A stretch of DNA of 64,000 bases from a virus. Its lineage: Duplodnaviria; Caudoviricetes. The translations under genes and the position numbers were made by a program. Positions 46,963 through 61,506 of the stretch are shown one piece after another (position 1 is the stretch's first letter; each line of letters starts with the position of its first letter). The notes under the pieces were generated by a model. It did not search any database, was not told the origin of the DNA, and saw nothing but the letters and a program-made list of their open reading frames with translations. The stretch covers positions 863 to 64,862 of the IMG/VR virus record IMGVR_UViG_3300025913_000034; one strand, given 5' to 3'.

Positions 46963-47160
46963 TCAAGGGTTCCTGTTCAGGAGTGCCACGGTCCCGATCT
47001 TGTGGCGTGGTTTTCAGTGTCGCGGGGGTTTCAACGGCTGTTGTCTCGGGCGCCGTCGGTTCCAACGGGACCGCCTGCTTCGTTGTCTGTTGGCGGCGTG
47101 CGCGGTGATGGTCTTGACCGGCTGCGGAGTCTGGGGGCGACCACCAGCTTCGGGAGCCTC

Positions 47161-48189
47161 ATGACGACAACGATTTTCGGGCCGGACATCTCGTCCTTCC
47201 AGCAGGGCCTGAGTTTGGCTCGGCTCGCGCAGGCCTCGTTCGTGATCGCGAAGACGACCGAGGGCACGTACTACACCGACGCGGACTATCAGGGCTGGCG
47301 TGCTCAGGCGGCGCTGCTTCGCAAGCCGTTCGTCTGGTATCACTTCCTGTCCGGGGAGCCGGCAGCGGCGCAGGCCGCGCACACCGCGGCGAACGTCGGC
47401 GACCTGGACCTGCCGGGGATGCTCGACTTCGAGCCGGAGGGTTCCTTTCATCCGACGCTGGCCCAGGCGATCGCCTACGTGGATGCGGCGCTGGCGGAGG
47501 GGCTGAATCTGCGGCTGGTGTATCTGCCGCACTGGTATTGGCAGCAGCTGGGGTCGCCGAGCCTGCAGGCGTTCCGGGACCGGAAGCTGCAGCTGGTGTC
47601 GTCGGCGTATCCGGGCGGTACCGGGGCGCCGTCGGCGATCTACCCGGGGGACGGTGCGGCGGGGTGGGCCGGCTACGGCGGGATGTATCCGCTGCTCTAC
47701 CAGTTCACGAACCAGGCGTCTGACGGCGGTAAGCCGCTGGACTACAACGCGTTCCGCGGTACTACTGCGCAGCTGCTCGCTGCTTTGGCACGGCCGTCGA
47801 CGACGCCCGCGCCGACTCCTGCACCATCATTCAGTTCGGATCCGGAGGACGATCTCATGCCCGCTTTCGCCACAGGACAGATCAACGCCGGCGCGGACGC
47901 CGTGACGGTGGTGGGTACGCCGGCGCCGAACACCAGCACGGCCGGCTGGGGGCGCGTCTGGCTTTCGTTGGCCTCGGACTTCGGGGACGCGCACGTGCGG
48001 GTGGCTGTGTGGACGCACGGCGAGGGCTGGTCGCACATCTTCGAGGACGTGCTGGTGGCGCAGTACGGCGACCGGGCGAACCCGCTGAACGGGCCGTTGC
48101 CGGACGGCGCCCAGAAGATCAGCATCAAGCGGTTGCCGGGCAGCGAGAACCTGCCGATGGCGTACCTGCTCGAGGCGATGCACAAGTGA
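47161..48189 (+). CDS. Endolysin, GH25 muramidase
   Basis: DISSFQ, AKTTEG, WYHFL, LDFE (DxE), YQFT, LDYNAF. Confidence 0.9.
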   Translation: MTTTIFGPDISSFQQGLSLARLAQASFVIAKTTEGTYYTDADYQGWRAQAALLRKPFVWYHFLSGEPAAAQAAHTAANVGDLDLPGMLDFEPEGSFHPTLAQAIAYVDAALAEGLNLRLVYLPHWYWQQLGSPSLQAFRDRKLQLVSSAYPGGTGAPSAIYPGDGAAGWAGYGGMYPLLYQFTNQASDGGKPLDYNAFRGTTAQLLAALARPSTTPAPTPAPSFSSDPEDDLMPAFATGQINAGADAVTVVGTPAPNTSTAGWGRVWLSLASDFGDAHVRVAVWTHGEGWSHIFEDVLVAQYGDRANPLNGPLPDGAQKISIKRLPGSENLPMAYLLEAMHK

Positions 48190-48515
48190 GCGCCTGGTCG
48201 AAGTATGTCGCCGAGATGGAGCGGGAGTTCGGCTCGGTCTGGCGCCGCTATCACGTGGCCGCGCAGCTGGGCCGGCTCGCGTCCGGTGTGGTGGGCAGCG
48301 TGCTGTGGACGGTGCTGCACGGCAGTGTCCACGACTGGACGGGGCTGGTGCCGGTGGTTTCGGGGGCGCTGTGGGCGACGCTGGCGCAGGTGTTCCCTCA
48401 GGTGCCGTGGCTGCTGGTGCGCAGCCGTTTCGGTTCGGGGCCGGACAAGGCGCCGGGCGGCGCGGGCACTCCCGGGGCCGGGCCGGCTGAGCCGCCGCCT
48501 GTGGTGACGGGCTGA
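48186..48515 (+). CDS. Putative holin
   Basis: Two hydrophobic helices, coupled to the endolysin. Confidence 0.55.
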   Translation: MSAWSKYVAEMEREFGSVWRRYHVAAQLGRLASGVVGSVLWTVLHGSVHDWTGLVPVVSGALWATLAQVFPQVPWLLVRSRFGSGPDKAPGGAGTPGAGPAEPPPVVTG

Positions 48516-48527
48516 ACGAGATCACGT

Positions 48528-48965
48528 GTGCGCCCAGCGCGCGGAATGGGGTGCACTGTGGCTGAGGAGCCGATGAGTGCTGGCGAGATCCGGAGCCGTT
48601 TCGAGAGCGTGGCGCAGCGATTCGGTGACGTCGATAAGCGGCTGGACCGGATGGCGCCTCTGGATTTGGTGGCCAGCGAGAACGGTCACCTTCGCGATCA
48701 GATCGCTGATGCCCGGTTGCACGCCAAGGAGCAGATCGTCGAGGTGGATCGGGCTTCTCGTGAGCGTGATGAGGATCTGGAGAAGACCGCGATGGCGGCT
48801 GTGAAGAGCGTGGCGGATGCGGGGGCCGCGGCGCGGACCGAGTTGACCGCGGCGGTGGCTGAGGTGAAGCGGGACAAGCAGACGACGTGGGGTTGGGTTC
48901 TGCAGGTCATCGGTTTCGCTGTTGCGATCGCTGCGGCTGTGATTGCCGCGAGGGGAATCCACTGA
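48528..48965 (+). CDS. Coiled-coil protein with C-terminal TM helix (lysis accessory)
   Basis: WVLQVIGFAVAIAAAVIAA C-terminus; start uncertain. Confidence 0.6.
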   Translation: MRPARGMGCTVAEEPMSAGEIRSRFESVAQRFGDVDKRLDRMAPLDLVASENGHLRDQIADARLHAKEQIVEVDRASRERDEDLEKTAMAAVKSVADAGAAARTELTAAVAEVKRDKQTTWGWVLQVIGFAVAIAAAVIAARGIH

Positions 48966-48966
48966 C

Positions 48967-49722
48967 ATGTCCGTTGCGAAGCTGAAGGCCTCTGCGGCGT
49001 TGTGGTGGGGGCGGGCGCGGGCGCACTGGGGCCGCGGGCTGGTGGCTGTGCTGTTCGTGGCGTTTGCGGTGTTCACGGTCAGCAAGCTGTATGCGGCGTC
49101 GGGGCAGCTCGACAGGCAGTCGAACATCATTTCTGGGTTGTCCACGGGCTTGTCGGGGGCCCAGTCGCAGCTGAAGGCAAACGGCATCCAGCCTTCTCAG
49201 CCGGCGCCGGCGCAGATCATCGCTCAGGCCGGCCCTCCTGGTCCGGCTGGCCCGTCAGGTCCTGGGCCGTCGGATGCGCAGGTGCAGGCGGCGGTGCAGG
49301 CGTATCTGCAGCAGCACCCGATTGCGGGGCAGCCGCCGACAACTGATCAGGTGGCGGCGGTGGTCGCGGTGTATCTGGCGCAGCATCCGCCGGCGGCGGG
49401 TCCGGCCGGGCCGGGGCCGTCTGACAGTCAGATCCAGGCGGCTGTGGCGGTGTGGGAGACGGCGCATCCGACGGTGGGCCCGTCTGGCCCGTCGGGGCCG
49501 CCTGGTCCTTCCGGGTCTCCCGGGCCGTCCGGCGTCGGCGCGACCGGTCCGCAGGGCGAGCCGGGTAGTCCTGGCGCCCCGGGTCCGTCGGGGCCGGCCG
49601 GGGCGTCCGGTCCGGCGCCGTCGGGGTGGGTGTATGTGGAGACGCCGCCGATCGGGAATCCGAAGACACACACCTGCGTGCCCTCGACTGCGGGCCCGTC
49701 GCCGTACTACTCGTGTAGCTGA
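48967..49722 (+). CDS. Membrane-anchored collagen-like protein
   Basis: N-terminal TM helix; Gly-X-Y runs ([19 protein letters not shown]...); repeated [10 protein letters not shown] unit. Confidence 0.8.
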
Positions 49723-50330
49723 ACAGTCGAAAGCGGCTTCACCCTGCGGGGTGGCGCCGCTTCTGTCGTGTCCGGGCTTGCGCCCGCTGTACGAACGTTC
49801 GATGATCGCGGCGTGCCCCGCGATGCCCAGCTGATCCCGGCCCCGCCGCCGCGGTGGCCGAAGCAGGATCCGGCCGGCCGCGGCGCGATCTGGATCCGCA
49901 TTGCCGGCCGCTGGCTGCCTGGCCACGTCCAGCGCTGGTACCGGGTGCCGCCCGACGGCTGGGGCTGTTGGGTGACGTACCACGCCGACCCGGAGCACCC
50001 GACGATCGCGCCGGAGTGGGGCCACTTCCGCTACGACCCGGAGGCGATCCTGGACCGGAAGGCGTGGCCTCAGCCGCCAGCGGAGTCCTGAGCGGCCAAC
50101 TGCTCTCGCGCCTCCTTCGACGCCGCCGCGTCTAGCTTGAGCCGGTTCGGGCCGGGCCGTAGCGCCGGATGCCGGTTGATCGCGACCGCCAGCTCACTCA
50201 TCCGCTGGTGCATTGCATTCCAGGCGTCGCCGGCGAGAGTCGGGAGGTCGCGCTCGGCCGTGTAAAAGTCGAGCTTGAGCGCGATCAGGTCGGCGGGGAT
50301 CTCGGTGTCGGACACGCGCTGATCATGCCA

Positions 50331-50379
50331 GACACCCCGACGCCCGGCCGCATGGTAGGCGGCCGGGCGTCGGGGTGTC
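50331..50379. terminator. 20-bp-stem hairpin downstream of the conjugation-module operon
   Basis: GACACCCCGACGCCCGGCCG/CGGCCGGGCGTCGGGGTGTC. Confidence 0.65.
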
Positions 50380-50522
50380 AGCGTGGTGTCATCAGTTTCC
50401 GCAGCCGCCGCCGGTGCCAGCGCAGTTCCCAGACGTGGATGCGGTGCCGCCAGCCGGCCTGCTCGTAGGACCCTTGCAGGGCGCGCAGCTGGCGGAGGAT
50501 CCGGCCGGCGTCGCCGCCGAGG

Positions 50523-51128
50523 TCAGTTGCGGTTGCAGTCCTCATCGGTCACCTTCCGGGACTCCGAGACCAGATCGGGCCGCGTCATCGGGCCGCCGCC
50601 GGTCTCGTCCCAGCCGATCGTCACCCGTTCCCGCCACCAGTCTGTCGTGCAGTAGTGGGTCGTGGGGAACAGGCTACCGGCGCCGTTGGTGCCGCCGCCG
50701 GAGGTTGCCGAGGACGTTTCGGCCGTGTACGGGCCGCCGAGGGTGAAGGCGTGTTCCAGGTGCGTGGATATGCGCAGCCGGTCCACGCCGACGCCGAGCT
50801 TCGCGCATTTCCACTGGACCTGGCCGGCGATGCCTTCTTTGCTGGCGGAGACCAGGAACGTCGCCGATCCGCTCTGGCTGAAGCCGAACCAGACCTTGCA
50901 GCCGTCGAAGTCGTCGCTGGTGTGGACGTGTCCGCCGTCGCCGGCATCGCCGGCCGCCGCGGTGGAGCTCGGGGCTACGGCGACCGTCCCGCCGGTGGTT
51001 CCTCCCGAGCTGCCGCCGGAGGATCCGGAGCCGCCGCCGGCGTCGCTGCCGCTGGTGCTGCTCTGGCACGCGGCCAGCCCGGTCGCCAGGACCGCGGCGG
51101 CCGCCAGTGTACCTATTCGTGTTCTCAC
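50523..51128 (-). CDS. Lipoprotein
   Basis: Signal peptide with lipobox LAAC, then a Gly/Ser linker. Confidence 0.8.
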   Translation of the reverse strand: MRTRIGTLAAAAVLATGLAACQSSTSGSDAGGGSGSSGGSSGGTTGGTVAVAPSSTAAAGDAGDGGHVHTSDDFDGCKVWFGFSQSGSATFLVSASKEGIAGQVQWKCAKLGVGVDRLRISTHLEHAFTLGGPYTAETSSATSGGGTNGAGSLFPTTHYCTTDWWRERVTIGWDETGGGPMTRPDLVSESRKVTDEDCNRN

Positions 51129-51227
51129 TGTTCCCCCTGGTTGTTGCCGGTTTCATGCCGGCGGTTGTCGTGGTGGTGGCACTACAAAAGGGCGTCGACG
51201 CCCGGCCGCGGTACCGGCCGGCTTCTC

Positions 51228-51974
51228 CTACCAGTGCAGAATCCAGCCCTTGCAGGTGAAGCATGGGACTTGCGCCTTGACCTCGCGTCCGCCTTTCTGC
51301 TGCACCGTGACGATGACGCTTCCCTTGTTCCCGCACGGCGGGCACACCAGCGAGTCCCACCGGTCGGGGGCGTTCTGGCCCGGGCCGTGGTTCGGTACCG
51401 CCCACGAGTGCGAGCACGGGGCGATCCCGATCACCGTTTTGACGCGGCCTTTGCCCTGGGTGAGCGGGCGTGTCCCCTTTCCGCGGCACCAGTCGCAGCC
51501 GAGCCGTTGCAGCCCAACGGCTTTGCGCGGCGTCGGCATCCGCGGAACCCCGGACGTGGACCCGGCCATCTGGCCGCCCGGTCCGCGCTTGGACTTGCGG
51601 GCCAGGTTCGGGTTGGTGCCCGCAGCCGTTTTCGCCGCCGAGGCCTTCCCCATGGGGGCGGTCCGGCCGGCGCGGTCCGACTTGCGCTTCGCGGCGCGGG
51701 CCGCACTCCGCTTCGCGCGGTCCGGCTCGACCTCGCCCGGGCGGTAGGTGCGGGCCTTGCGGCTGCCGTCCAGGCGCCAGCCCTTCTTGGTGCGGCGCAT
51801 GCCGCGGGACGTCACTTCGCCGGTGCGCGGATTGCGGCTGGCCGAGGCGACCATCCCAACGCCGAGCCGACGCTTGAAGCCGCGGACCGGGTGCGGGTGG
51901 TTGCGTTCGGGGCCGAACAGTATGCGCAGGGCAACGCGGTGCGGCGCCCACCCCGAGGACTTGCGCCGCCCCAT
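51228..51974 (-). CDS. Basic protein with DnaJ-type zinc-finger motifs
   Basis: CDWCRGKG, CPPCGNKG, CFTCKG; start overlaps the traB stop. Confidence 0.65.
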   Translation of the reverse strand: MGRRKSSGWAPHRVALRILFGPERNHPHPVRGFKRRLGVGMVASASRNPRTGEVTSRGMRRTKKGWRLDGSRKARTYRPGEVEPDRAKRSAARAAKRKSDRAGRTAPMGKASAAKTAAGTNPNLARKSKRGPGGQMAGSTSGVPRMPTPRKAVGLQRLGCDWCRGKGTRPLTQGKGRVKTVIGIAPCSHSWAVPNHGPGQNAPDRWDSLVCPPCGNKGSVIVTVQQKGGREVKAQVPCFTCKGWILHW

Positions 51975-54166
51975 CACGCCTCCTTCGACCGCGGGGCCGG
52001 GACCGTGCACACGAAGCGCTCCGAGCGTCCGTCGGCGTCCCGCTCGGATATCGCACCCAGGTGAGCCTTGAAGGCGGTCAGCGCCGTAGTGCAGCGGTCC
52101 CGGGATCCGAACGTGGGCAGCCGGTAGGCCATGAGCTCCTTCACCGTGGCCGAGCCCATCGAGCAGAACAGGGCCCAGATGTCCCGGAACTCCGGCTCAA
52201 CCTCGGTCTTGTCCGGGTAGCGGGGCGCACTGACGTCGCGCAGCCGCGGCGGCGAGGATGGGCTGCCGGTGGTGCGCTGGCCGCCGCCGGGGCCACCGGG
52301 GTTACGGGGGTCGCAGCGGCCGTTCAGGATCGCCTCCATCGCCACGGCAGTGCGCTCGTCCAGAGCCGGCCGGTCGTCCTCGTGTTCCTCGATCACCTGC
52401 ATGATCCGCTCAGGGGTGATCATGTAGCCGCGTCCGACCGACGGCCGCGGGTATTCCGGGGTGCGGGGCCGGAACATCCCGGACAGTGGCAGCGTGGTCT
52501 CGTCGGCGCGCCAGCCGTCGCCGTGGGCGCCCTGGCCGAGGATCACGTTCGTCTGCGTGGCCGAGCGGGTGCGGTAGCAGGCGACGTTGGTGAACTGCCC
52601 GGACCCGTCGGTGGTGTCGCCGAGGGCCTTGCCCGACGGGGACTGTGTGGCGGCGATGATGTAGATGCCCAGGGCCCGGGCGACCTGCATGAGCCGCAGC
52701 CACAGCTCGAACAGGGTCTTGTCCAGGCGCATCATCTCGGCCAGCTCGTCCATCAGCAGCACGATCGCCGGGCCGTGGCGGTTCGGGTCCCACTCCTTCA
52801 CCGGCTTGCCGGTGCGCTCCCGCTCCTCCTTCAGGATCTGCCCGCGTTCCTCCATCGCGGCGCCGAGCGCGCGCAGCAGCAGCGCGGCATCGTCAATGCC
52901 GAATGCGGCCCGGTAGGCGACCCGCTCATACGGGCCGAGTTCCAGTTGGCCCGGCTTCAAATCCATCAGCACCATGACGGCGTTCTTCATCGACGCGACC
53001 GCGCAGGCGATGACGTTGACCCCGATGGATTTCCCGCCGTCGGTGATTCCGGCGTACAGGGTGTGGCGGCCCTTGAGCCGGAAAGCGATCGCTTCCAGGG
53101 CTTCGTCGATACCGATGTTCACCGGCTGCGTAATGTCGTCGGTATTCGGGCCCGGCCACATATGGACTTCGTCGAGGGCGGATTCCTCGCCGTCGGTGAC
53201 ACGGATTTCCCACCGGTTCCCGATCGCGGTGGGGATGATCTGCACGGCCCGGCATTTCAGGTTGTTCCGCAGGGTTTCGGTGCGGGCCAGCAGCCACCGG
53301 TAGCTGATGTTCTTGGAGTCAGGCGTGTAAATGTAGGTCATCCACGCGTCTTCTCCGAGGCGGCGGATCACGTCGACCTGGATGGGTTCGACGGCGATGG
53401 AGGCGAACGCGGCGTGCAGTCGCGCCGCCTCATCGGACAGGGTGCCGATGCCGGTGCCGACGGGGGTGCCGACGGCAAGCGCCGGGGTGCCGACGGGCGC
53501 CGGCGGCATCGGCGCCGCGGCGGCGGCCTCCATCCAGTCGACGGCGGCGTCGGCGGCGGCCTGCTTGGTGTGTCGGCGCCAGCCAATGGAGCCGAGGGTG
53601 CCGACGGCGCCGAGGAGGAATGAGGCCATCGCCGAGATACCGGAGAAGCCGGCGCCGACGGCGGCGGCGCCGGAGAATCCGACGAGGGAGCCGACGAGCA
53701 GTCCATGGGTGAGGTGCCGGTCTGCTTCGTTGCCGTGGAAGTGGTGCGCGAGCCAGGATCCGACCGGGAACAGGCCTCCGCCTCCGAGGAACGGCAGCAT
53801 CAGCCAGATGTGGTTCGGCTCCAGGTTTGCCCACCAGCCGCACGCCGAGTAGCCGACCGTGGTGAGTGCCGGCCACAGATGGTAGTGGCCGATGATCTCC
53901 ACGATCTGCGGGTGCGGACGCGGCAGGTGGCGCTGGTCGTGCAGCGCGGCGATGTGCAGCGGCATCGGGGCGTAGGCGGGGTGCTGGCCGTGGAAGGCGA
54001 CAGCATCAGCGCTGTGAGCTGGGATAATACTGCCTTCGTAGATCGTGCCGCTCGGGTGACGCGACACGGCAGGCGCGTCGGGGACGGGTTGTATCTCCGA
54101 CCCGGGCCGGGAAAACGGGCCCGGCAGCGTGTCGTGTCGTGTGTCGTGTGTCGCGTCGAGGCTCAC
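51974..54166 (-). CDS. traB: TraB-like FtsK/SpoIIIE DNA translocase
   Basis: N-terminal TM helices; Walker A AGITDGGKS; DLKPG; Walker B LLMDE; ARALGI..IAATQSP; short C-terminal wHTH-like domain. Confidence 0.88.
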   Translation of the reverse strand: MSLDATHDTRHDTLPGPFSRPGSEIQPVPDAPAVSRHPSGTIYEGSIIPAHSADAVAFHGQHPAYAPMPLHIAALHDQRHLPRPHPQIVEIIGHYHLWPALTTVGYSACGWWANLEPNHIWLMLPFLGGGGLFPVGSWLAHHFHGNEADRHLTHGLLVGSLVGFSGAAAVGAGFSGISAMASFLLGAVGTLGSIGWRRHTKQAAADAAVDWMEAAAAAPMPPAPVGTPALAVGTPVGTGIGTLSDEAARLHAAFASIAVEPIQVDVIRRLGEDAWMTYIYTPDSKNISYRWLLARTETLRNNLKCRAVQIIPTAIGNRWEIRVTDGEESALDEVHMWPGPNTDDITQPVNIGIDEALEAIAFRLKGRHTLYAGITDGGKSIGVNVIACAVASMKNAVMVLMDLKPGQLELGPYERVAYRAAFGIDDAALLLRALGAAMEERGQILKEERERTGKPVKEWDPNRHGPAIVLLMDELAEMMRLDKTLFELWLRLMQVARALGIYIIAATQSPSGKALGDTTDGSGQFTNVACYRTRSATQTNVILGQGAHGDGWRADETTLPLSGMFRPRTPEYPRPSVGRGYMITPERIMQVIEEHEDDRPALDERTAVAMEAILNGRCDPRNPGGPGGGQRTTGSPSSPPRLRDVSAPRYPDKTEVEPEFRDIWALFCSMGSATVKELMAYRLPTFGSRDRCTTALTAFKAHLGAISERDADGRSERFVCTVPAPRSKEA

Positions 54167-55227
54167 CGGTTCACCGCCTCGCGCTCGTCAGCGTCCCAGG
54201 GCGTTGCGTTGTGGAGCTCTTCGGTGGCCTTGCGGACGTCGCGGGCGCGGGACTTGCCGAGGGTGCCGAGCCCTGCGCGCTCGATCGCGTCGGCCAGCTG
54301 CGGCGCGTTGGGCTCAGCGCCGTGGGTGCCGATGTGGGCCCGGTAGAGCGGCAGGGCGGCGGCGGCCCACTGGTCGATGTTGCGCTTGGCGGCGGCGCCG
54401 GCAGTGGCCATGTCGATGACGTCGGCACCGCGGTCGGCACTTCCATCGGCGCCGGTGCCGACGGGTTCGTCGGCGGTCGGCGCCGCCGTCGGCACTTCGT
54501 CGGCGCCCCGGTCGGCACCCGTCGGCGGTGCCGATGGTGCCGTCGGCGCCTTCGTCGGCGCCTTCCTTGTCGGCGCCGATGGCTTCTCGTCGGCACTCTG
54601 CGCGGTGCCGATGGAGGCGCCGTCGGCACCGCTGCCGGAGGCGAGCGAGTGCAGATGCAGGAGCCGGTCGACGATGAACGGCGGCAGGGACAAGATCACA
54701 ACGAGGAGGGCGATCGGCACCCAGGTGGGCAGCATCGCCCCGGCGAGCACGAGCACGTGATAGGCGAAGTTACCGCCGACCGACAGATACAAGGCGTGGC
54801 GGGCATTCCGCTTCGCAGCGCCATGCGCGGGATGTGCGGCCGGGACGAGATTCCCGAACTGGATGCTGGTGATGGCGTATCCGTCCAGGCACGCCGGCAG
54901 CAGCCACGCGAGATAGACCGGGACCCGGCCGAGCCGGGCGAGATTGAAAAGAGTGGGGGCGGAAAGGGCGGCGGCGCAAAGGCCGGCGAAAGCAACGCCG
55001 ACGGTGACGATACGGCGTGCCCGATGTGACAGCGCCGGGATCGGGTCGCTGTTCCTGCTGCGCTTCTTTGCCTTACCTTGGGACGTGTCCACGCTGATTC
55101 CTGAGATCGCGTGCGGCAAAGGAGCCCGGCCGCCCTTCCCGGCGGTCGGGCTCTTTGGCCCCAAGCCCGGGCCAATCCTAGCTTCGATGGTGGCGGCGGC
55201 AGAATTCTGATTCATCAAAAGCTCCAT
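54163..55227 (-). CDS. Spd-like (DUF2637-type) membrane protein
   Basis: Four TM helices (LFNLARLG...LAWLLPACLDG...LSVGGN), low-complexity linker, C-terminal HTH-like segment; coupled to traB. Confidence 0.7.
   Translation of the reverse strand: MELLMNQNSAAATIEARIGPGLGPKSPTAGKGGRAPLPHAISGISVDTSQGKAKKRSRNSDPIPALSHRARRIVTVGVAFAGLCAAALSAPTLFNLARLGRVPVYLAWLLPACLDGYAITSIQFGNLVPAAHPAHGAAKRNARHALYLSVGGNFAYHVLVLAGAMLPTWVPIALLVVILSLPPFIVDRLLHLHSLASGSGADGASIGTAQSADEKPSAPTRKAPTKAPTAPSAPPTGADRGADEVPTAAPTADEPVGTGADGSADRGADVIDMATAGAAAKRNIDQWAAAALPLYRAHIGTHGAEPNAPQLADAIERAGLGTLGKSRARDVRKATEELHNATPWDADEREAVNR
54421..54629 (+). repeat. Cluster of GTCGGC(A/G)C octamers (clt/TRS-like)
   Basis: 11 copies counted by eye (54421, 54433, 54476, 54488, 54499, 54511, 54542, 54554, 54569, 54589, 54622) in different codon frames. 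Confidence 0.7.
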
Positions 55228-55520
55228 GCGGCGGCCCTTCGCATGAGGGCGGGGGCGGCGCGTACGGGCAGGCATGCGGCGGTTGCGGCGACGCCGGCGG
55301 CGAGGATCAGCAGGACGTAGGGGGCGGGGACGGTGGGGTGCGCGACGGCCCACGAGCCGATCCCGGCTGCGGCGAGCCGGCGGCCGTGGAGTGCGGCGAG
55401 GTAGGTCAGGCGCAGGGTTTCAACGTCGGGGCAGCCGGGGGCGGCGCCGAGGAAGGCCAGGGTGCCGAATCCGGCGAGGGCGGCGCCGAGCAGGAGCAAA
55501 GCGACTGTGACGGTGGTCAT
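55215..55520 (-). CDS. Small membrane protein (Spd-like)
   Basis: Hydrophobic helices; AGGAG RBS. Confidence 0.55.
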   Translation of the reverse strand: MTTVTVALLLLGAALAGFGTLAFLGAAPGCPDVETLRLTYLAALHGRRLAAAGIGSWAVAHPTVPAPYVLLILAAGVAATAACLPVRAAPALMRRAAAWSF

Positions 55521-55646
55521 GGCTTGGTGTCTCCTCTCGGTGTTGTGCATCTGGCGTGGGTCTTGTGGGTCTGGCTTGTGGATGTGGGGCCCGGCTGTCG
55601 CAGGTGGCTTGGGGACCCATCCCTGCGGCGGCCGGGAGTTGGTGGG

Positions 55647-55922
55647 TCAGCCGCGCTCGCGTGTCTGCTGCTCCGGTTTGGGCTTGGGGGTGCAGCGTGC
55701 TTGCCGGAGCAGCAGCTGCATAAGGCCGCCGATCTCGGGCTTGGGCAGCGTGGCGAGTTCGTCGATCAGAACGACTTGCGACACGCTGGCGGACTCAGCG
55801 AGTCGAGAGCGCCGTTCGGCCACCAGGCGCAGAATGTCGGTCTGCACGTCAGCGTCGTAGACGACGACAGTGCCGTCTGCGGTAGCGCCAATGGCGAGCT
55901 GTTCGTGGTCGGGTCCGCTCAT
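55647..55922 (-). CDS. Mini FtsK/TraB-like fragment lacking Walker A
   Basis: LVAERRSRL...VVLIDELATL...LMQLLLRQAR parallels TraB AMEERGQIL...LLMDELAEM...LMQVAR. Confidence 0.55.
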   Translation of the reverse strand: MSGPDHEQLAIGATADGTVVVYDADVQTDILRLVAERRSRLAESASVSQVVLIDELATLPKPEIGGLMQLLLRQARCTPKPKPEQQTRERG

Positions 55923-56251
55923 CGCGCACCACCGATCCCGTGCCGCGCGAGGAATCCCACAACGGCACGTCCCGTCTCGGTCAGCGCCACGCCGTTGCCC
56001 TCGCATGCCGGGCAGGCGATCCACTTGGGCGGGCAGTCGTCGAGCGCCGCGAAGTAGGCCACGGATCCGCCGGAGTACGGATCGCTCGGAACGTAGTTCG
56101 GGCGCAGCGTGTCCATACGCTGCTCCCACTCAGCGAGCGCATCGGTGTTGGGCACGATGCCGTCTTCGCAGTCGGTGCAGGGTGCTTCCACCGAGTTGAG
56201 GAGCGCCAGCAAACGGCGGCCATTGCTGGCGCGGCGGAGGGAAGTCTTCAT
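55919..56251 (-). CDS. Zinc-finger protein
   Basis: CTDCEDG...CPACEGNG. Confidence 0.7.
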   Translation of the reverse strand: MKTSLRRASNGRRLLALLNSVEAPCTDCEDGIVPNTDALAEWEQRMDTLRPNYVPSDPYSGGSVAYFAALDDCPPKWIACPACEGNGVALTETGRAVVGFLARHGIGGAR

Positions 56252-56688
56252 CGCGCACCGCGCTTTCCGTTGACGCGGATGTCGCTGGCCCTGAGGCCGG
56301 GCTGGTCCTTCAGGACGTCAACCATTCGGGCGGCGCCTTCGGGGGCGTCGAACCGCTCGGTGACGCGGGTTCGGGTGATGCCGGAGTGCCAGGACACGGT
56401 GACCTTCGTGTTGTCGGCGGTCATTGCAGCTCTCCCTTCCGGGGCGTGGAACCCGGCCGCCGCGGCGAGCTTGGGGGCTTCTAGCCGTGGCGGCCGGGGC
56501 TTGTGGGTCAGCCGCGGCGTCCACCCGCGCGGGCTCTTGCTGCGGGCGGCGCGGTCCGCTGCGGTCTGCTCGGCGGCGGCCATGTCGTAGAACATCTCGG
56601 CGCTGTTGTGCCGGCCCTCGGCGGCGGCCTTGTCGCCGGCCTGGTTGTACGCCTCGGCCTCGCTGGTGTTCTTCTTGAGCAGTGCCAT
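56248..56688 (-). CDS. Hypothetical protein
   Basis: AAAGGA RBS; coupled to the downstream ORF. Confidence 0.55.
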   Translation of the reverse strand: MALLKKNTSEAEAYNQAGDKAAAEGRHNSAEMFYDMAAAEQTAADRAARSKSPRGWTPRLTHKPRPPRLEAPKLAAAAGFHAPEGRAAMTADNTKVTVSWHSGITRTRVTERFDAPEGAARMVDVLKDQPGLRASDIRVNGKRGAR

Positions 56689-56745
56689 AGTTCAGTCCTT
56701 TCGTGGTTGTCCGGCTGTGTTCGGTGACGGCCGGGGGCTTGTGGG

Positions 56746-57192
56746 TTAGAGCGCGACGCGCTGCGCGTCGCCGATGATGCGGTCGTGGTCGAAAGCGAGG
56801 GATCCCGCGGTGGACATGAGCTCGGCGACAGGAACCCACTCGGCCTCGGTCGCGTCGTCGCCGGCGGTCGGTGTCGGCGTGTCCGGAAGGCAGGCGGTGT
56901 AGGCGAAGCCGACGTAGCGTCCGCGGGGGTCCCGGTCGGGGTCGGCGTAGACGCCGACGAACTGCAGCTCCTCGGTGATGCTCAGGCCGGTTTCCTCGGC
57001 GAGCTCGCGGCGGCCCGCGGCCAGGGTCTCCTCGCCGACGTCGACGTGTCCGCCGGGCAGCGCCCAGCAGCCTTCGTAGGGGTCCCAGCCGCGACGGATG
57101 ACGAGGACGTGCAGGTCCCCGTCCCGCTGGCCGAACAACACGACGTCGACGACCAGGCGGGCGGTCTCGGGGGTGGTGTCGGTGCTGGTCAT
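56746..57192 (-). CDS. Nudix hydrolase
   Basis: Nudix box GGHVDVGEETLAAGRRELAEETGL; RDPR; LAFDH. Confidence 0.93.
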   Translation of the reverse strand: MTSTDTTPETARLVVDVVLFGQRDGDLHVLVIRRGWDPYEGCWALPGGHVDVGEETLAAGRRELAEETGLSITEELQFVGVYADPDRDPRGRYVGFAYTACLPDTPTPTAGDDATEAEWVPVAELMSTAGSLAFDHDRIIGDAQRVAL

Positions 57193-57320
57193 GGCTCTCC
57201 TTCTGGTGCTGCCGGGTGTGCCGGATCGTCCGGTTATCTTGTCAGCATTCTGCTTGAAAGTTCAGCGTAGACCTCGCCGAAAAACTTGTCCACAGGATGC
57301 GTATCCGCCAGAATCGGCCC

Positions 57321-57569
57321 ATGGCCGGCTACCTCAGCACCTCCGACGTTGCGACGCTGCTCGGGGTTCAGTCGTCCACCGTGCGGTTCCTGCGCGCCGA
57401 ATCCAGGCCGGGCCATCGGTACGCCGCCGACCCCTTCCCGGAGCCGGACCTCGTCATCGCCCGCTCGCCCGCGTGGTCTGAGGACCGCGCGGGCGAGATC
57501 TTGGCGTGGAACGAACGACGCCCCGGGCAAGGCGCAGGGGGCGGACGGCCGCGCAAAAACGACCCCTAA
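57321..57569 (+). CDS. AlpA/MerR-like HTH regulator, divergent from the conjugation operon
   Basis: STSDVATLLGVQSSTVR...PFPEPD...RSPAW...RPGQG; similar to 21117-21419. Confidence 0.7.
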   Translation: MAGYLSTSDVATLLGVQSSTVRFLRAESRPGHRYAADPFPEPDLVIARSPAWSEDRAGEILAWNERRPGQGAGGGRPRKNDP

Positions 57570-58249
57570 CGCACCGACGCCCGGACCGGATGGCCGGGCG
57601 CCGGGTCCTCAGGCATCGATCCGGCGAGGTCTCGCGGCGGTCGAATCCATGTCCTGCTCGTCGGTGCCGGGCGCATAGGGCCCGCGGAACGGTGTTCCGT
57701 CGACAGCGTCGCCGTAGAACCGCAGTGGTCCGAGGTCGTGAATGCGTGTGCCGGCCCGCAGCTGCTCGGCGACCACCTCCAGGTGCCGCCCGTTCAGGCC
57801 GCGGGGCATGGGCCGTCGGCCGTCGGCGTACTCGTCGGCGACCGCGGCGAGCTCGTCAAGGCTGCCGGCATACACGGTGAGGTCGCCGACGCGGTTGGTG
57901 CGGACGGTCATGAGGCGGTTTCGGCCGCGGCCTGTCGGGTGCGGTGCGGCTGCCATGCGCCGTCAGAGCCCTGACGCAGGTCGATGCTGATGAGCGTCAG
58001 GCCCCGGTGTGTGGCCTCCCACGTTTCCTGGGCGACACGGTCGGCGAGTCCCCAGGACGGCTTGGTCTCGTAGGTGTGTTTGGGGTGGACCATTTCGGGG
58101 TCCGCGATTTCCCAGGTGTATCGCAGGGTCCATCCGCGGGCGGGTTCGGTAGCTGGAGGTGTCATAGTGGTGACGGTAGGAGTTCGAGGCCTGCGCTGCG
58201 ACGACGAAAAAGGCGTCATTCCGGCGTCATTTCTGGGTATCGTCAGGCT

Positions 58250-58981
58250 ATGGCACCCAACACCACACTCAAGGCCGTCCGGATGGGCCTGCGCCTAAGC
58301 CAGGACGGCTTCGCCAAGGCGATACAAGAGGCCGGCGAGCGCATCGGCGCCCGGAACCAGTGCTCAAAGCGGTTGGTACAGCGGTGGGAGGCCGGCGAGG
58401 TTTCGCATCCGCACCCCGAGCACGCGCGCGCCCTGGAGGCAGTGACAGGCCTTCCCGCTGCCAGCCTCGGCTTCGCATGGCCGGTGCCCGACGCACCAAT
58501 ACCGGAGGCAATCCCCGCAGACTCGGCAGGGGCGCTGTCGGGGATCTGGTTGTCGCGGTACGAGTACCACTCGACATCGCGGGATGCCGACTTCCTCGGC
58601 TGGCACTACATTGCGCTGGTCCACACCGGCGACCGCCTGCAGGGCCGGTCTCTGCCGGGCTCCAGCAGCAGCGTCTTGCACCTGGACTTCACGGTTACCG
58701 GGCAGGTCGCCACCGGCACATGGACGGAACACACGCATCCGACCAGCTACTACTCGGGCGCGGTCTATCACGGCGCGATTCAGCTGCTCGCGGATCCGAC
58801 GGGCCGGCGTCTGGCCGGGCAGTGGGTGGGCTTCGGCCGGGTCGGCCAGGTGAACACCGGCCGGTGGGAGCTGACGCTGCGGGACAAGTCGCTGGGGAAG
58901 GGCGCGCTGGCGCGATGGGATCGGCGGCCGGAGGAGGCGGGGGGTGCGGCTGCGGACGAAACGCGGGACGCGGCGCGGTGA
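58250..58981 (+). CDS. XRE-family regulator with a C-terminal beta domain
   Basis: LKAVRMGLRLSQDGFA...SKRLVQRWEAGEV; LSGIWLSRYEY. Confidence 0.82.
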   Translation: MAPNTTLKAVRMGLRLSQDGFAKAIQEAGERIGARNQCSKRLVQRWEAGEVSHPHPEHARALEAVTGLPAASLGFAWPVPDAPIPEAIPADSAGALSGIWLSRYEYHSTSRDADFLGWHYIALVHTGDRLQGRSLPGSSSSVLHLDFTVTGQVATGTWTEHTHPTSYYSGAVYHGAIQLLADPTGRRLAGQWVGFGRVGQVNTGRWELTLRDKSLGKGALARWDRRPEEAGGAAADETRDAAR

Positions 58982-59014
58982 CCTACGGCCCTTCGCAAGC
59001 GGGGCGCGCTGCGC

Positions 59015-59300
59015 TTGGGAGATTTCCGGGAGATGATCTTGTGGAAGTTATGTATACCCAAGTATCCACATGTATCTATGTGTCTCGCTAAGTGCCATGT
59101 CATTCGGGGCGTCCATAGCCAGTTAGGCGCTGACCAGGGGCGCCCCGCACTATTTTGCCATGTGGGCCGTAGGAAGCAGCAGACCGTAACCCGCATTCAG
59201 CACTCGGGAAGAGATGCATCTAGACCGTACGGGTCTGAATATCAAGCGCTGTGCACGAGGCGCAGGCCGCCCTTTTGGGAGACAAACGGGAGACGATCTT
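59015..59300. mobile_element. Putative attP region
   Basis: 26-nt direct repeats TTGGGAGA-N4-CGGGAGAYGATCTT at 59015 and 59275; GTAT at a 10-bp period (59052, 59062, 59072); lower GC; adjacent to the integrase 3' end. Confidence 0.7.
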
Positions 59301-60489
59301 GCCGGGCAGCCACTGCGACAAGGTCTGGGCGCTCCCGGCACAGCCGGTCCCACCGCGCCTGAAGCGCGGCCACGATCTCCTGCTCCATGGCCTCGCTCGT
59401 GTGCGAGTAGACACCCTCGACGCCCTGGAGCTGATGCCCCATACGCTCCTCGGCGGCGATGCGCGGTGCTCCGTCCTCGTCGATCCACACCTTGTGGCTG
59501 TGACGCAGGCCGTGCATGGTGAGGCCCTTCGCACCCTCAACGGCCGGCACCGCGGGCTTGCGGACTTTGCTGCCGTTGTACGTGGCCTCACGACCGTTCA
59601 CGGCCTCGGAGAATGCCAGCTGACCGAAGCCCGACCGGCGCGGGTGGGCGCCCTTTGCTCCGAGGAAGAGGTGCACCTGATCCACCGGCAGCGTGTCGAG
59701 AAAGTCGCGCAGGATAGTCACCAAGAACGGGGGGATCGGCAGTGTGCGGCGGCTGCCGTACTTCGGCTCCTTCTCCTCGAAGCTCCCGTCGTCGTGCTCG
59801 ACCAGCTGCCACTCGACGCGGACCGCGCCCCGCTCCAGCCAGACGAACTCGCGCTTGAGTCCGACCAGCTCACCCCAGCGCATGCCCGTGAAGGCGGCCA
59901 GGACGGCCAGGACGAACGCCCACTCCCCGCGCAGGACGCGCAGGTTGTTCGCCACGCGCAGCACGTCCGCTTCGTAGACCCAGACCTTCTCGGTGTGCGT
60001 TCGACGCTTGTAGCGACCGCGGCGCTTGCGCCTCTGCGCGGGGTTGAAGTCGATGAGCCCCTCGTAGACGGCGTCTTCGAGCATCGTGACGAGCAGTCCA
60101 CGGGTGACGGACAGGGTGTTGGGCTTCATGCCGCCCTCGGCAAGCGCGGTCGCCCAGGCTTCGACCTTCAACGGCTTAATGTCCGCCAGCGGGCGGTCGC
60201 CCCAGGCCGGCACCAGGTGGATGCGCAGACGGGTGCGGTAGCGCTCCATGGTCAGGCTGGAGACGTCTTGGGCGTCGATCCAGCGCTCGGCCCAGTCCTT
60301 GAACAAGATCTTGCCGCGCTCTGGGTCTTTCCAGATGCCGCGCCGGATATCGGCTTCCTGCTCGCGGCCGTAGTTGACGGCGGCGTCTCGGGTGGCGAAT
60401 CCGGGCTCTGAGTCCCAGCTGCCGTCGGGGAGTTGGAAGCGGGCCCGCCACGGATAGGGGCCCTTGCCGCGTTTCTCTGCGTAGGCCAT
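59242..60489 (-). CDS. int: Tyrosine integrase
   Basis: Arm-binding N-terminus (WRARF...GFATR..A); TGMRWGEL; HGLRHSH; RMGH; VYSH. Confidence 0.95.
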   Translation of the reverse strand: MAYAEKRGKGPYPWRARFQLPDGSWDSEPGFATRDAAVNYGREQEADIRRGIWKDPERGKILFKDWAERWIDAQDVSSLTMERYRTRLRIHLVPAWGDRPLADIKPLKVEAWATALAEGGMKPNTLSVTRGLLVTMLEDAVYEGLIDFNPAQRRKRRGRYKRRTHTEKVWVYEADVLRVANNLRVLRGEWAFVLAVLAAFTGMRWGELVGLKREFVWLERGAVRVEWQLVEHDDGSFEEKEPKYGSRRTLPIPPFLVTILRDFLDTLPVDQVHLFLGAKGAHPRRSGFGQLAFSEAVNGREATYNGSKVRKPAVPAVEGAKGLTMHGLRHSHKVWIDEDGAPRIAAEERMGHQLQGVEGVYSHTSEAMEQEIVAALQARWDRLCRERPDLVAVAARQDRLPFVSQKGGLRLVHSA

Positions 60490-60584
60490 CGTCGATGCCT
60501 CCTGGGTGTAAGTCGGCTGAACTGCGCCGGGAGAGGGTAAACGCAGTCCATGCCGGCTCTACACGGTACGGCTCGGGATGTCGG

Positions 60585-60953
60585 TCAGGTACCTGTTCGT
60601 CCGCGCCGGACGGGGAAGTTGGTGACGACGCCGAGCGAGGGGTGGCTTTCGTTCAGGGCGTCGGCGCGGCCGGCTTGGTAGCCGAGTTCGAACAGTCGGT
60701 CGCCGAGCTTTTGGGGCTCGATGACGATGTACTGGACCAGCCAGACGACCAGGGTCGTACAGGCTGCCGAGACGAGTAGGAGGGTGATGTTCTGCATTGC
60801 CCGGCTGGCGGCGTTGCTGTGGTCACCGGTAAAGGCGCAGGTGATGATCCAGGCGCCTGCTAATCCCCAGAGGGTGGCTACCACCCCCCCGTGGAGCCTT
60901 CTACAACGTTGGAGACTCGGGACGTTCGTTCGGTTTGAGGTTCCTTCGGACAT
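60585..60953 (-). CDS. Two-TM membrane protein co-oriented with repressor and integrase
   Basis: Two hydrophobic helices; AGGGG RBS. Confidence 0.6.
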   Translation of the reverse strand: MSEGTSNRTNVPSLQRCRRLHGGVVATLWGLAGAWIITCAFTGDHSNAASRAMQNITLLLVSAACTTLVVWLVQYIVIEPQKLGDRLFELGYQAGRADALNESHPSLGVVTNFPVRRGRTGT

Positions 60954-61045
60954 TTCCCCTCGCTCACCCGTTGACCACTGAGTAGCTGATCGGGCCACCG
61001 AGTCAACTCCCGGAGTAAAGGGAGAGTCAAGAGTAAAGGTACTGA

Positions 61046-61489: not shown

Positions 61490-61506
61490 GCGGACACTGT
61501 ATCGCC

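What the first reader, a model, noticed from the sequence alone, without database searches (positions are those of the whole stretch)
50523..59300. A virion-forming temperate phage carrying an AICE-type conjugation module
Seen: between the lysis cassette and attP/integrase lies a leftward operon of Nudix hydrolase, Zn-finger proteins, Spd-like membrane proteins, a membrane-anchored FtsK ATPase and a lipoprotein, with a divergent HTH regulator. No separate Rep, integrase or boundary repeat was recognised for this block; the only integrase belongs with the phage repressor/Cro/Xis switch. Known: actinomycete plasmids and AICEs such as pSAM2 transfer dsDNA with a single TraB translocase plus Spd proteins, and pSAM2 encodes a Nudix conjugal-immunity protein (Pif). 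Inference: a phage-AICE hybrid that could spread both by particles and by hypha-to-hypha transfer of the excised circle, bypassing receptors.
Basis: partly seen in the sequence, partly recalled or inferred. Interest (0 to 1): 0.87.

Follow-up and report, generated by a model that had tools for sequence, protein, structure and literature searches.

The report
Phage-borne TraB/SpdB-like DNA transfer cassette
A temperate actinomycete phage carries, as a conserved part of its own genome, a membrane DNA pump, a spread-type membrane protein and a repeat array that together look like the plasmid DNA-transfer system of Streptomyces, hinting that such phages may also move as naked DNA between hyphae.

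Summary
Window 50523-57569 encodes a lipoprotein, a Cys-rich basic protein, a 730-aa membrane-anchored FtsK-type translocase, two membrane proteins, a Zn-ribbon protein, a Nudix hydrolase and a divergent Xis-like HTH. It lies between a lysis cassette/terminase and the record's only integrase.

New evidence:
- The translocase has TM helices, an FtsK alpha/beta motor and a C-terminal winged helix.
- The gene just upstream belongs to a divergent DUF2637 branch, and DUF2637 proteins are homologous to pIJ101 SpdB.
- Thirteen same-orientation GCCGAC cores (six full GTGCCGAC) lie in 261 bp upstream of the translocase, in two codon phases. The array is conserved in relatives and is built like clt arrays, which the same scan recovered at real traB genes.
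- The cassette recurs in a syntenic relative and in a complete 95-kb phage with unrelated head genes.
- Its wider clade consists of viral contigs, phage Gilgamesh and Streptomycetaceae genome loci, 9 of 12 with a terminase nearby.

It is therefore not an inserted AICE. It is a phage-specific lineage of Tra/Spd-like modules, and it does not nest in the sampled TraB or FtsK groups. Rep and Kor were not found. Nudix linkage varies. Transfer is untested. The plasmid-phage pZL12 is a precedent.

The parts
50331..50379 (-). Perfect 21-nt inverted repeat with a 7-nt loop. Likely terminator that closes the cassette operon.
   Evidence: the repeat finder I9. It has no T tail, so the consensus terminator scan did not list it.
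50523..51128 (-). Putative lipoprotein, 201 aa.
   Evidence: Signal peptide and LAAC lipobox read from the translation. NCBIfam lipo_SCO4651 gives E 0.007 over the N-terminus only. Among the relatives it is found only in L002, at 99%.
51228..52010 (-). Basic, Cys-rich (CxxC) protein, 260 aa. It is the conserved downstream partner of the translocase.
   Evidence: DnaJ_CXXCXGXG E 1.3e-3, below the cut-off. Found at 37-92% identity directly after the translocase in L002-L007 and L035 and in G304-G306.
51974..54166 (-). Membrane-anchored FtsK/TraB-type dsDNA translocase, 730 aa. It has TM helices, an alpha/beta motor and a C-terminal winged helix.
   Evidence: Pfam FtsK_SpoIIIE 3.2e-12. The AF2 model shows helices 98-217, a motor at 245-620 and a wHTH at 650-725. 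Foldseek's best hit is the FtsK motor 6t8o, E 4e-13. The isolated C-terminal domain folds as a winged helix. Placement in the tree.
53454..53605 (-). Four copies of the 8-mer in the opposite orientation (GTCGGCAC on the coding strand), inside the linker after the TM region of the translocase.
   Evidence: One inverted copy at a similar offset in L003 and in L004.
54400..54660 (-). clt-like array. It holds 13 GCCGAC cores, 6 of them full GTGCCGAC, all in the orientation of the translocase gene. The array is embedded in the linker-coding part of the upstream gene.
   Evidence: 13 cores in 261 bp against about 1.8 per kb per orientation in the window. They fall in two codon phases, 7 and 6. GTGCCGAC occurs 19 times in the window against a shuffle mean of 7.8 and a maximum of 17. 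It is the strongest local 8-mer cluster in the window. The array is conserved in L002, L003 and L004.
54163..55227 (-). SpdB-superfamily (divergent DUF2637) membrane protein, about 354 aa: TM core, low-complexity linker and a conserved C-terminal region. The longest ORF extends to 55353.
   Evidence: No Pfam hit of its own. Atlas score 0.90 to DUF2637 clusters. 33 of 80 homologues hit DUF2637. Its family profile against the DUF2637 group gives hhalign 94%. That group against pIJ101 SpdB gives 95.6%.
55215..55550 (-). Small membrane protein, 111 aa, with three hydrophobic segments.
   Evidence: Hydropathy and GC3 of 0.86. No family hit.
55919..56251 (-). Small CxxC protein, 110 aa.
   Evidence: Anti-TRAP-like Zn-ribbon, E 2e-6, below the cut-off.
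56248..56688 (-). 146-aa protein of unknown function, in the operon.
   Evidence: GC3 of 0.88. No family hit.
56746..57192 (-). Nudix hydrolase, 148 aa. First gene of the leftward operon.
   Evidence: Pfam NUDIX 1.7e-24. phrog_1198 1.1e-24. The nearest NCBIfam models are ADP-ribose-type Nudix families, all far below their cut-offs.
57297..57569 (+). Divergent 90-aa HTH protein, possibly an excisionase.
   Evidence: Xis_Gifsy_1 E 0.006 only. 47% identical over 60 aa to an ORF in L005.
59242..60489 (-). Tyrosine integrase. It is the only one in the record.
   Evidence: Pfam Phage_int_M and Phage_integrase. phrog_1 5e-51. Single PF00589 match in the 64,862-bp record.
44906..46489 (-). Large terminase. 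It marks the start of the virion module that runs leftward to about 28275.
   Evidence: phrog_38 1.4e-66; portal, scaffold, major capsid protein, tape measure and tail proteins. 46-50% identical to Streptomyces phages Yara and Wentworth.
47002..49722 (+). Lysis cassette: an endolysin and two membrane-anchored proteins.
   Evidence: phrog_3084 4.7e-38. TM segments in 48528-48965 and 48943-49722.

Best explanation
The block is a conserved cassette of the phage itself. It encodes a plasmid-type double-stranded-DNA transfer and spread apparatus.

Proposed mechanism (inferred, not shown):
1. A pump with a membrane anchor, a hexameric FtsK-type motor and a C-terminal winged helix loads on the phage genome.
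2. It loads at an array of same-orientation GTGCCGAC/GCCGAC repeats that lies about 230-500 bp upstream of its own gene.
3. Together with an SpdB-superfamily membrane protein, and probably the small TM protein, the Cys-rich basic protein and the lipoprotein, it pushes the excised or replicating phage DNA through hyphal cross-walls or into a touching hypha.
4. No virion or receptor is needed for this route.

The integrase and the Xis-like protein would supply the circular substrate and re-integrate it.

Shown here: the domain architecture, the homologies, the repeat array and its conservation, and the fact that the cassette is part of phage genomes.

Inferred: that the winged helix binds the array, that DNA is pumped, and in which direction and at what stage of the phage's life.
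For: Architecture.
- FtsK_SpoIIIE domain.
- AF2 model with TM helices, an alpha/beta motor and a C-terminal wHTH at pLDDT 80-91.
- Foldseek best hit is the FtsK motor, E 4e-13, followed by the conjugation coupling protein TcpA.
- The isolated C-terminal domain matches MarR/ArsR/MecI winged helices: probability 1.0, TM 0.5-0.6, E about 0.02.
- TraB is described with this same architecture, and its wHTH helix alpha3 reads 8-bp repeats (passages of PMC3583192; PMC4447253).

Partner protein.
- 33 of 80 homologues of the upstream protein hit Pfam DUF2637.
- Its family profile against DUF2637-type neighbours of related pumps gives hhalign 94%, E 1.4e-7.
- Those neighbours against pIJ101 SpdB give 95.6%, E 1.2e-8.
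- pIJ101 SpdB also hits them by phmmer and by HMM.

Cis site.
- 13 GCCGAC cores in 261 bp, all in one orientation and in two codon phases. A single peptide repeat therefore does not explain them.
- It is the strongest 8-mer cluster in the window, and the count exceeds all 100 shuffles.
- The same motif sits at the same place in L002, L003 and L004, although the host protein is only 46-61% identical there.
- Positive control: the same scan finds CTGACACC/GGTGTGAC arrays at the 3' end of NF041214 traB genes. This matches the TraA-footprinted TGACACC repeats of the pWTY27 clt.
- Across 42 related loci, the most significant 8-mer cluster lies within -1200 to +700 of the pump's start in 24. About 4.4 are expected from the area alone. 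At least nine different motifs are involved.

Integral to phages.
- Synteny with G304.
- The cassette is present in the complete phage G306.
- A TerL lies within the fetched flanks in 25 of 48 clade loci, including 9 of 12 Streptomycetaceae genome loci.
- Depth in run X1 is flat, 41-76, across all 30 bins of 45001-64000. X1 may be the source sample, so this is not independent.
Against: - No experiment. DNA binding, pumping and transfer are all inferred.
- The pump does not group with the sampled TraB or Tra proteins. Deep nodes of the tree are weak, 84/83 and 93/78.
- NCBIfam plasmid_TraB gives 42 bits against a cut-off of 800. Chromosomal FtsK scores higher on that model.
- The array is upstream of the gene and inside a coding linker. 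Known clt arrays lie at or beyond the 3' end of traB.
- In 2 of the 24 loci (L018, L045) all copies are in one frame and could be a peptide repeat.
- The Gilgamesh subgroup shows no array and no DUF2637 neighbour.
- The window protein itself has no direct Pfam DUF2637 hit. Its profile does not match pIJ101 SpdB directly, hhalign 0.1%.
- The recognition helix varies among relatives that share the motif.
- Another protein could read the repeats. One candidate is the C-terminal region of the SpdB-like protein. Another is a Rep: RepAM of pMEA300 binds 8-bp repeats inside its own gene (PMC2440964).
Confidence: 0.55

Rival explanations
1. Vertical-inheritance role. The pump acts like FtsK/SffA at sporulation or vegetative septa. 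It clears or sorts phage DNA, or the lysogen's chromosome near the prophage, into spores or compartments. It would then secure inheritance, not horizontal transfer.
For: The motor is FtsK-like in fold. The tree does not separate the clade from chromosomal FtsK with strong support. About 130-kb Streptomyces 'plasmids' carry Gilgamesh-type pumps, which suggests extrachromosomal prophages that would need partitioning. Authors of Streptomyces phage papers link phage FtsK-like proteins to host development or replication (passages in PMC13587820 and PMC11536984).
Against: The window phage has an integrase, so as a prophage it would ride with the chromosome. The partner is of the SpdB superfamily, which is tied to plasmid spread. 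No FtsK gamma domain was found by Pfam. A dense array next to the gene fits a single loading site better than dispersed, chromosome-wide guide motifs of the KOPS kind (that comparison is recalled, from no call).
Confidence: 0.15
2. Host manipulation or exclusion. The membrane ATPase and its partners act on other DNA or on the host. They might expel or block superinfecting phage or plasmid DNA, or disturb septation. The repeats would then be a by-product of a low-complexity linker, or an operator.
For: PHROGs files phage FtsK/SpoIIIE-like proteins under 'moron, auxiliary metabolic gene and host takeover'. The cassette lies between lysis genes and the integrase, where lysogeny-expressed genes often sit; that placement rule is recalled. 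A Nudix gene heads the operon, and pSAM2's Nudix protein Pif blocks redundant transfer (PMC2440964).
Against: PADLOC gives only generic ATPase similarity, SspH and mads_8 at 32-34 bits. The array is orientation-pure, lies in two codon phases, and is conserved while the encoded peptide drifts. Lineage-specific motifs recur at the same place in at least nine lineages.
Confidence: 0.12
3. The repeat array is a replication origin or a partition site read by a protein other than the pump. Its closeness to the pump gene would then be coincidental or regulatory.
For: RepAM of pMEA300 binds multiple identical 8-bp repeats inside its own coding sequence (PMC2440964). No replication initiator was identified among the window ORFs that were scanned.
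Against: The array follows the pump and SpdB-like pair across phages with different virion genes, and presumably different replication genes (G304 against G306). The motif changes with the pump lineage. Spacing is irregular, 12-33 nt, as in the control clt arrays, 9-41 nt. It is not helically phased as iterons usually are; that property of iterons is recalled.
Confidence: 0.1
4. The block is a separate AICE or island inserted into, or assembled next to, the phage.
For: The gene content recalls AICEs: Int, Xis-like, Nudix and an FtsK-type Tra (review passages in PMC2440964). The record is a metagenome contig that IMG/VR classes as linear.
Against: No flanking direct repeats and one integrase only. 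GC content is even across the borders, 0.69-0.72. Independent assemblies cover the junctions: L002 runs across the left border and G304 keeps the whole order. The cassette sits in a complete phage genome with terminal repeats. Depth in X1 is flat.
Confidence: 0.03

Closest known systems
TraB/Tra, clt and Spd system of Streptomyces plasmids and AICEs (pSVH1, pIJ101, pWTY27, pSAM2)
   Same: One membrane-anchored FtsK-type dsDNA pump with a C-terminal winged helix. An adjacent array of short direct repeats with irregular spacing. A membrane partner of the SpdB superfamily. Nudix and integrase genes nearby, as in many AICEs (for the known systems; for this one).
   Different: The pump lies outside the sampled TraB and Tra groups and far below the NCBIfam TraB cut-off. 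The array and the SpdB-like gene are upstream of the pump, not downstream. No Rep, no GntR Kor and no own att sites were found. The carrier is a tailed phage.
Streptomyces plasmid-phage pZL12 / phiZL12 (Zhong et al. 2010, J Bacteriol 192:3747)
   Same: [quoted passage not shown] This is as cited in PMC3583192. See also the paper's title in reference lists and the mentions in PMC4487206 and PMC7157519.
   Different: pZL12 is kept as a plasmid with ParAB, whereas the window phage has an integrase. I could not read the paper, which is not held. I did not obtain the pZL12 sequence, so the relation between its Tra and this clade is unknown.
FtsK-like DNA translocase of Streptomyces phage Gilgamesh (gp10)
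   Same: The nearest protein in a cultured phage: 35% identical over half the length and in the same broad clade. The phage is temperate, with a tyrosine integrase and a TerL within 7 kb.
   Different: It has no DUF2637-like neighbour and no repeat array near the gene. TerL is on the other strand. The genome is 129 kb.
Chromosomal FtsK / SpoIIIE
   Same: The alpha/beta motor fold, a membrane anchor and a C-terminal DNA-reading domain.
   Different: No Ftsk_gamma (PF09397) hit. About 27-32% identity over a quarter to a third of the length to FtsK-like sequences. A separate clade in the tree. A dense local repeat array rather than dispersed guide motifs.

Membership tests
Streptomyces conjugative translocase TraB/Tra | FtsK/SpoIIIE-type motor domain | tested here: met
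   Pfam PF01580, E 3.2e-12, 46.8 bits against a cut-off of 24. Foldseek matches the FtsK motor at E 4e-13.
Streptomyces conjugative translocase TraB/Tra | N-terminal membrane association | tested here: met
   Hydrophobic segments at 152-188. Long helices at 98-217 in the model. No dedicated TM predictor was available.
Streptomyces conjugative translocase TraB/Tra | [quoted passage not shown] | tested here: met
   The full-length model has H-H-H-beta-hairpin at 650-725, pLDDT 80-91. The domain folded alone has pLDDT 78.8. It matches MarR/ArsR/MecI winged helices at E about 0.02, TM 0.5-0.6.
Streptomyces conjugative translocase TraB/Tra | Cognate clt: a cluster of short (7-9 bp) direct repeats next to the gene | tested here: inconclusive
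   An array is present and conserved, and the method recovers real clt repeats. But the array is upstream and lies in coding DNA, and binding was not tested.
Streptomyces conjugative translocase TraB/Tra | Sequence membership (NCBIfam NF041214 plasmid_TraB, or grouping with known Tra in a tree) | tested here: not met
   42.2 bits against a cut-off of 800. Chromosomal FtsK scores 65-68 bits on the same model. In the tree it is apart from NF041214 TraB and from pIJ101 Tra (38 rows, drawn from 37 of the loci held at that point).
Streptomyces conjugative translocase TraB/Tra | Mediates transfer of clt-bearing dsDNA between mycelia | not testable with these tools
   Needs mating assays.
AICE (Int + Rep + Tra between att sites, as used in PMC3218068) | Integrase next to an att site | tested here: met
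   One tyrosine integrase. attP and attB were not located.
AICE (Int + Rep + Tra between att sites, as used in PMC3218068) | Replication initiator (RepSA, RepAM or Prim-Pol) | tested here: inconclusive
   PF09250 Prim-Pol gave no match, and its control genomes did ring. PF12307 RepAM gave no match, but its control rang nowhere. RepSA was not tested. None was seen in the ORFs scanned.
AICE (Int + Rep + Tra between att sites, as used in PMC3218068) | Element bounded by its own direct repeats, separable from its neighbours | tested here: not met
   No repeat of 14 nt or more flanks the block. The block is syntenic inside phage genomes.
AICE (Int + Rep + Tra between att sites, as used in PMC3218068) | GntR/Kor-type repressor and a Pif-like Nudix | tested here: inconclusive
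   No GntR hit in the ORFs scanned. A Nudix is present, but its relation to Pif was not tested and its linkage to the cassette varies.
DUF2637 / SpdB membrane proteins | Match to Pfam PF10935 | tested here: not met
   The window protein itself has no hit at E 0.05 or better.
DUF2637 / SpdB membrane proteins | Homology by profile and through intermediates | tested here: met
   33 of 80 homologues hit PF10935, best E 7e-13. hhalign gives 94% to the DUF2637 group. That group against pIJ101 SpdB gives 95.6%. Direct comparison to SpdB fails. Atlas score is 0.90.
Temperate tailed phage | Terminase, portal, capsid, tape measure, endolysin, integrase and repressor in one replicon | tested here: met
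   The record is an IMG/VR virus contig with CheckV completeness of 90%.

The most novel reading that the evidence does not exclude
A whole clade of temperate actinomycete phages has a second, virion-free route of spread. It includes Streptomyces, Kitasatospora and Streptosporangiaceae prophages. A phage-specific TraB-like pump and an SpdB-like partner recognise a lineage-specific repeat array on the phage genome. They move the genome as double-stranded DNA through cross-walls or into neighbouring hyphae. Infection or lysogeny would then spread within and between mycelia without receptors.
Probability: 0.4. Interest if true: 0.9.

Novelty: new variant of a known kind. Interest (0 to 1): 0.72.

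Why it matters
Phages and conjugative elements are usually treated as using separate routes. In mycelial bacteria, a phage that can pump its genome across septa or into touching hyphae would escape receptor-based resistance. It would change how plaques, lysogeny and defence work in a multicellular host, and it would blur the line between prophage and AICE.

The data give directly testable parts:
- a 261-bp candidate cis site;
- a winged helix that could be tested for binding to it;
- an SpdB-like partner;
- related prophages in named culture-collection strains (locus titles).

The data also show that an 'FtsK-like' gene next to a terminase is a recurrent architecture in uncultivated prophages. 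Cultured phages barely represent it. The window's SpdB-like protein has no match in 50,697 phage records. Among the 30 listed of 82 matching records, the pump's only Streptomyces-phage match is Gilgamesh.

Searches of the held library found no paper that describes this pairing in phages. pZL12 is the one functional precedent, and it is known here only through citations.

Tried and rejected
- attB / host site. BLAST of 60480-61060 against the Streptosporangiaceae MAG that holds L035 found nothing. Against 251 genomes of its order it gave only 20-50-nt, noise-level matches. No integration site was found. One of those genomes (G319) is flagged unpublished.
- att repeats inside the window: none.
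- Complex prediction of pump residues 60-345 with the SpdB-like protein: no verdict, score 0.00. This is not evidence either way.
- The look-up of sequencing runs: no RNA holder listed.
- Read laying. Logan contigs are 3.2 kb or shorter. All listed joints but two X4 ones have only 20-23 letters on the shorter side, and I treat them as noise. No listed contig bridges the 50.3-kb border.
- Co-variation of the recognition helix with the motif: inconclusive.
- The consensus promoter and terminator scan was uninformative.
- Rfam found only the tRNA, and no Y RNA beside the TROVE gene.
- PADLOC: no specific system.
- Looking for pZL12 by searching a chromosomal FtsK motor against the phage records. 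No Streptomyces record appeared among the 40 rows listed of 396. The pZL12 paper is not held.
- DUF2637-bearing cultured phages SF3 and TurkishDelight have no annotated FtsK-like neighbour.
- A literature search for 'DUF2637' gave 2 papers, and I did not open either.
- Supplementary files were not consulted. AICE and phage gene tables in the supplements of PMC3218068 and PMC9513070 might list phage-linked Tra genes.
- The HMMs used were built partly from proteins of the same loci (A4 and A5). Matches in L010, L020, L023, L025, L036, L037, L039-L041, L043, L047 and the window are therefore by construction.

Full report
**What the window is.** The window is bases 863-64862 of a 64,862-bp IMG/VR virus record. 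IMG/VR classes it as linear, and CheckV rates it 90% complete. GC content is about 70% throughout. I called genes by third-position GC.
- A virion module runs leftward from the small and large terminase genes (46962 to 44906). It continues through portal, scaffold, major capsid protein, tape measure and tail proteins to about 28275.
- An endolysin and two membrane-anchored proteins lie on the other strand at 47002-49722.
- A tyrosine integrase is at 59242-60489. A repressor-like gene and an HTH gene are at 61046-62034.
- Phage-type genes lie on both sides of the integrase. The contig therefore looks like the phage form of the genome, not like a prophage with host flanks.
- TerL is 46-50% identical to Streptomyces phages Yara and Wentworth. 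No close cultured relative exists in that collection.

**The observation.** Coordinates and scores are given under the observation check. The FtsK_SpoIIIE and NUDIX assignments are above the Pfam cut-offs. The two 'Zn-finger' assignments and the lipoprotein rest on sub-threshold hits and on motifs visible in the translation. A perfect 21-nt hairpin at 50331-50379 ends the operon. There is one integrase in the record, and no candidate att repeats flank the block.

**The pump.** An AlphaFold model built on 19 relatives has mean pLDDT 67.7. It shows long helices at 98-217, an alpha/beta motor at 245-620 and a C-terminal winged helix at 650-725, the last with pLDDT 80-91.
- Foldseek puts the FtsK motor first (6t8o, E 4e-13). 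The FtsK-like conjugation coupling protein TcpA comes next.
- The C-terminal 96 residues folded alone have pLDDT 78.8. They match MarR/ArsR/MecI winged helices at E about 0.02 and TM 0.5-0.6. This is a generic winged-helix match, not specifically the FtsK gamma domain.
- This is the architecture reported for TraB (PMC4447253 and PMC3583192, passages).

**Where the pump sits among relatives.** The word-indexed search of the large protein collection, limited to proteins of 401-1278 residues, found 21 relatives at 37-83% identity.
- I built a careful tree of motor domains with 38 rows, using 37 of the loci then held and leaving near-duplicates out.
- The window groups with L003, L004, L007 and L005 (support 100/100).
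- That group sits inside a 23-row clade of viral contigs, phage Gilgamesh and Streptomycetaceae genome loci (support 84/83).
- The clade is apart from NF041214 TraB, pIJ101 Tra, chromosomal FtsK, short AICE-like Tra proteins and EccC. Deep nodes are weak.
- NCBIfam plasmid_TraB gives the window protein 42 bits, less than it gives chromosomal FtsK. That hit says nothing specific.
- Of the 12 genome loci in the clade, 9 have a TerL 1.4-5.6 kb downstream on the same strand, so they too are prophages.

**The partner.** The gene just upstream (54163-55227) has a TM core, a low-complexity linker and a conserved C-terminal region.
- It has no Pfam hit of its own.
- A full-library phmmer search found 176 representatives. 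Of the 80 I aligned, 33 hit DUF2637.
- The profile of this family matches the DUF2637-type proteins that precede related pumps at hhalign 94%.
- Those proteins match pIJ101 SpdB at 95.6%. SpdB also hits them directly.
- The direct comparison of the window's family with the single SpdB sequence fails. The link is therefore transitive.
- A DUF2637-like ORF lies directly upstream on the same strand in 27 of 48 clade loci. In 5 more, no upstream sequence is held (some matches are by construction, see Tried and rejected).

**The repeat array.** GTGCCGAC is the most locally clustered 8-mer of the whole window.
- It occurs 19 times in the window, against a shuffle mean of 7.8 and a maximum of 17. Eleven of the 19 lie in 53454-54629.
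- In 54400-54660 there are 13 GCCGAC cores, all in the orientation of the pump gene and only one in reverse. They fall in two codon phases, 7 and 6, and encode xAD in one phase and APT/VPT in the other. One peptide repeat cannot produce this pattern. It points to selection on the DNA.
- Four inverted copies lie about 560-705 bp into the pump gene.
- The same motif sits at the same place in L002, L003 and L004. L004 has 10 direct copies within about 180 bp (12 counting two inverted ones), in two frames.
- L005 and L007 have CGCCGAC-type arrays there instead.

**Control and generality of the array.** The same scan on NF041214 traB loci returns CTGACACC/GGTGTGAC arrays right at the 3' end of traB. 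That motif contains the TGACACC repeats of the pWTY27 clt, which TraA footprints (PMC3583192).
- Across 42 clade loci, the most significant 8-mer cluster lies within -1200 to +700 of the pump's start in 24. About 4.4 are expected from the area alone, and one more lies just after the stop.
- The motifs differ between at least nine lineages.
- Caveats: the loci are related to one another. L018 and L045 are in-frame throughout. The Gilgamesh subgroup has no array.

**Is the block part of the phage?** Yes.
- G304 (45 kb) shares the virion module, with major capsid protein 87%, portal 67% and TerL 69% identical. The cassette follows in the same order.
- G306 is 95,441 bp, is classed as having direct terminal repeats, and is rated 100% complete by CheckV. 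Its TerL, capsid and tape measure are of other families. It still carries the SpdB-like gene, the pump (63%) and the Cys-rich gene.
- L002 is a separate assembly at 98% identity and runs across the left border.
- Depth in the best-holding run is flat over 45-64 kb. That run may be the source sample.
- The conserved core is the SpdB-like gene with its array, the pump and the Cys-rich basic protein. The lipoprotein, the Nudix and the integrase are variable neighbours.

**Reading.** The cassette works like the Streptomyces Tra/clt/Spd system in every feature I could test in silico. By sequence, however, it is a separate, phage-borne lineage, and the gene order and the position of the array differ.
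- Most likely it moves phage dsDNA across septa or between hyphae. I put that at about 0.55.
- Rivals are a septal sorting role, host manipulation or exclusion, and an array that serves replication.
- An inserted AICE or a misassembly is very unlikely.

**Prior knowledge.**
- Papers on Streptomyces phages mention FtsK-like genes only in passing (passages).
- AICE surveys treat FtsK-domain hits in prophages as background (passage of PMC3218068).
- pZL12 is a plasmid-phage whose conjugal transfer needs a tra gene. I know it only from citing papers, because the paper itself is not held.
- My searches found no description of the SpdB-like, pump and array cassette in phages.

Noticed in passing
window 11018-12607 (+); L007/L035/G306 and L045: A TROVE (Ro60-like) protein, Pfam 1.6e-18. 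Its 54-56% relatives lie right after the pump cassette in G306/L007/L035 and in a Kitasatospora prophage, L045. G306 also has an RNA-ligase-type gene, phrog_562. Rfam finds no Y RNA in the window.
   Followed up: partly
window 19382-19454 (-): The only tRNA is tRNA-Ala(GGC), in the middle of the rightward early region. It is not next to the integrase.
   Followed up: no
window 23189-26385 (+): A run of sugar-modifying genes: methyltransferase-like, NAD-dependent epimerase, and family-2 and family-1 glycosyltransferases.
   Followed up: no
window 48943-49722 (+): A membrane-anchored protein in the lysis cassette with collagen-like G-P-S repeats. These show as 9-nt periodic DNA repeats at 49477-49610.
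   Followed up: no
L041/L053 11125-11203: In the Streptomyces prophage group L037-L044, four GGGTCGGA copies lie within 80 bp directly after the pump's stop codon. That is the classical clt position.
   Followed up: partly
PLSDB records H31-H35: Five Streptomyces 'plasmids' of 130-133 kb carry pumps 30-37% identical to the window's. They are the size of phage Gilgamesh (129 kb), so they may be plasmid-prophages.
   Followed up: no
L038: A 4.5-kb contig binned as Gemmatimonadales carries a pump and a DUF2637 gene nearly identical to those of Streptomyces prophages. A binning error is likely.
   Followed up: no
window 19864-20319 (+): A DUF6221 protein, Pfam 2.2e-25. It has relatives near the pump in several Streptomyces prophage loci.
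   Followed up: no
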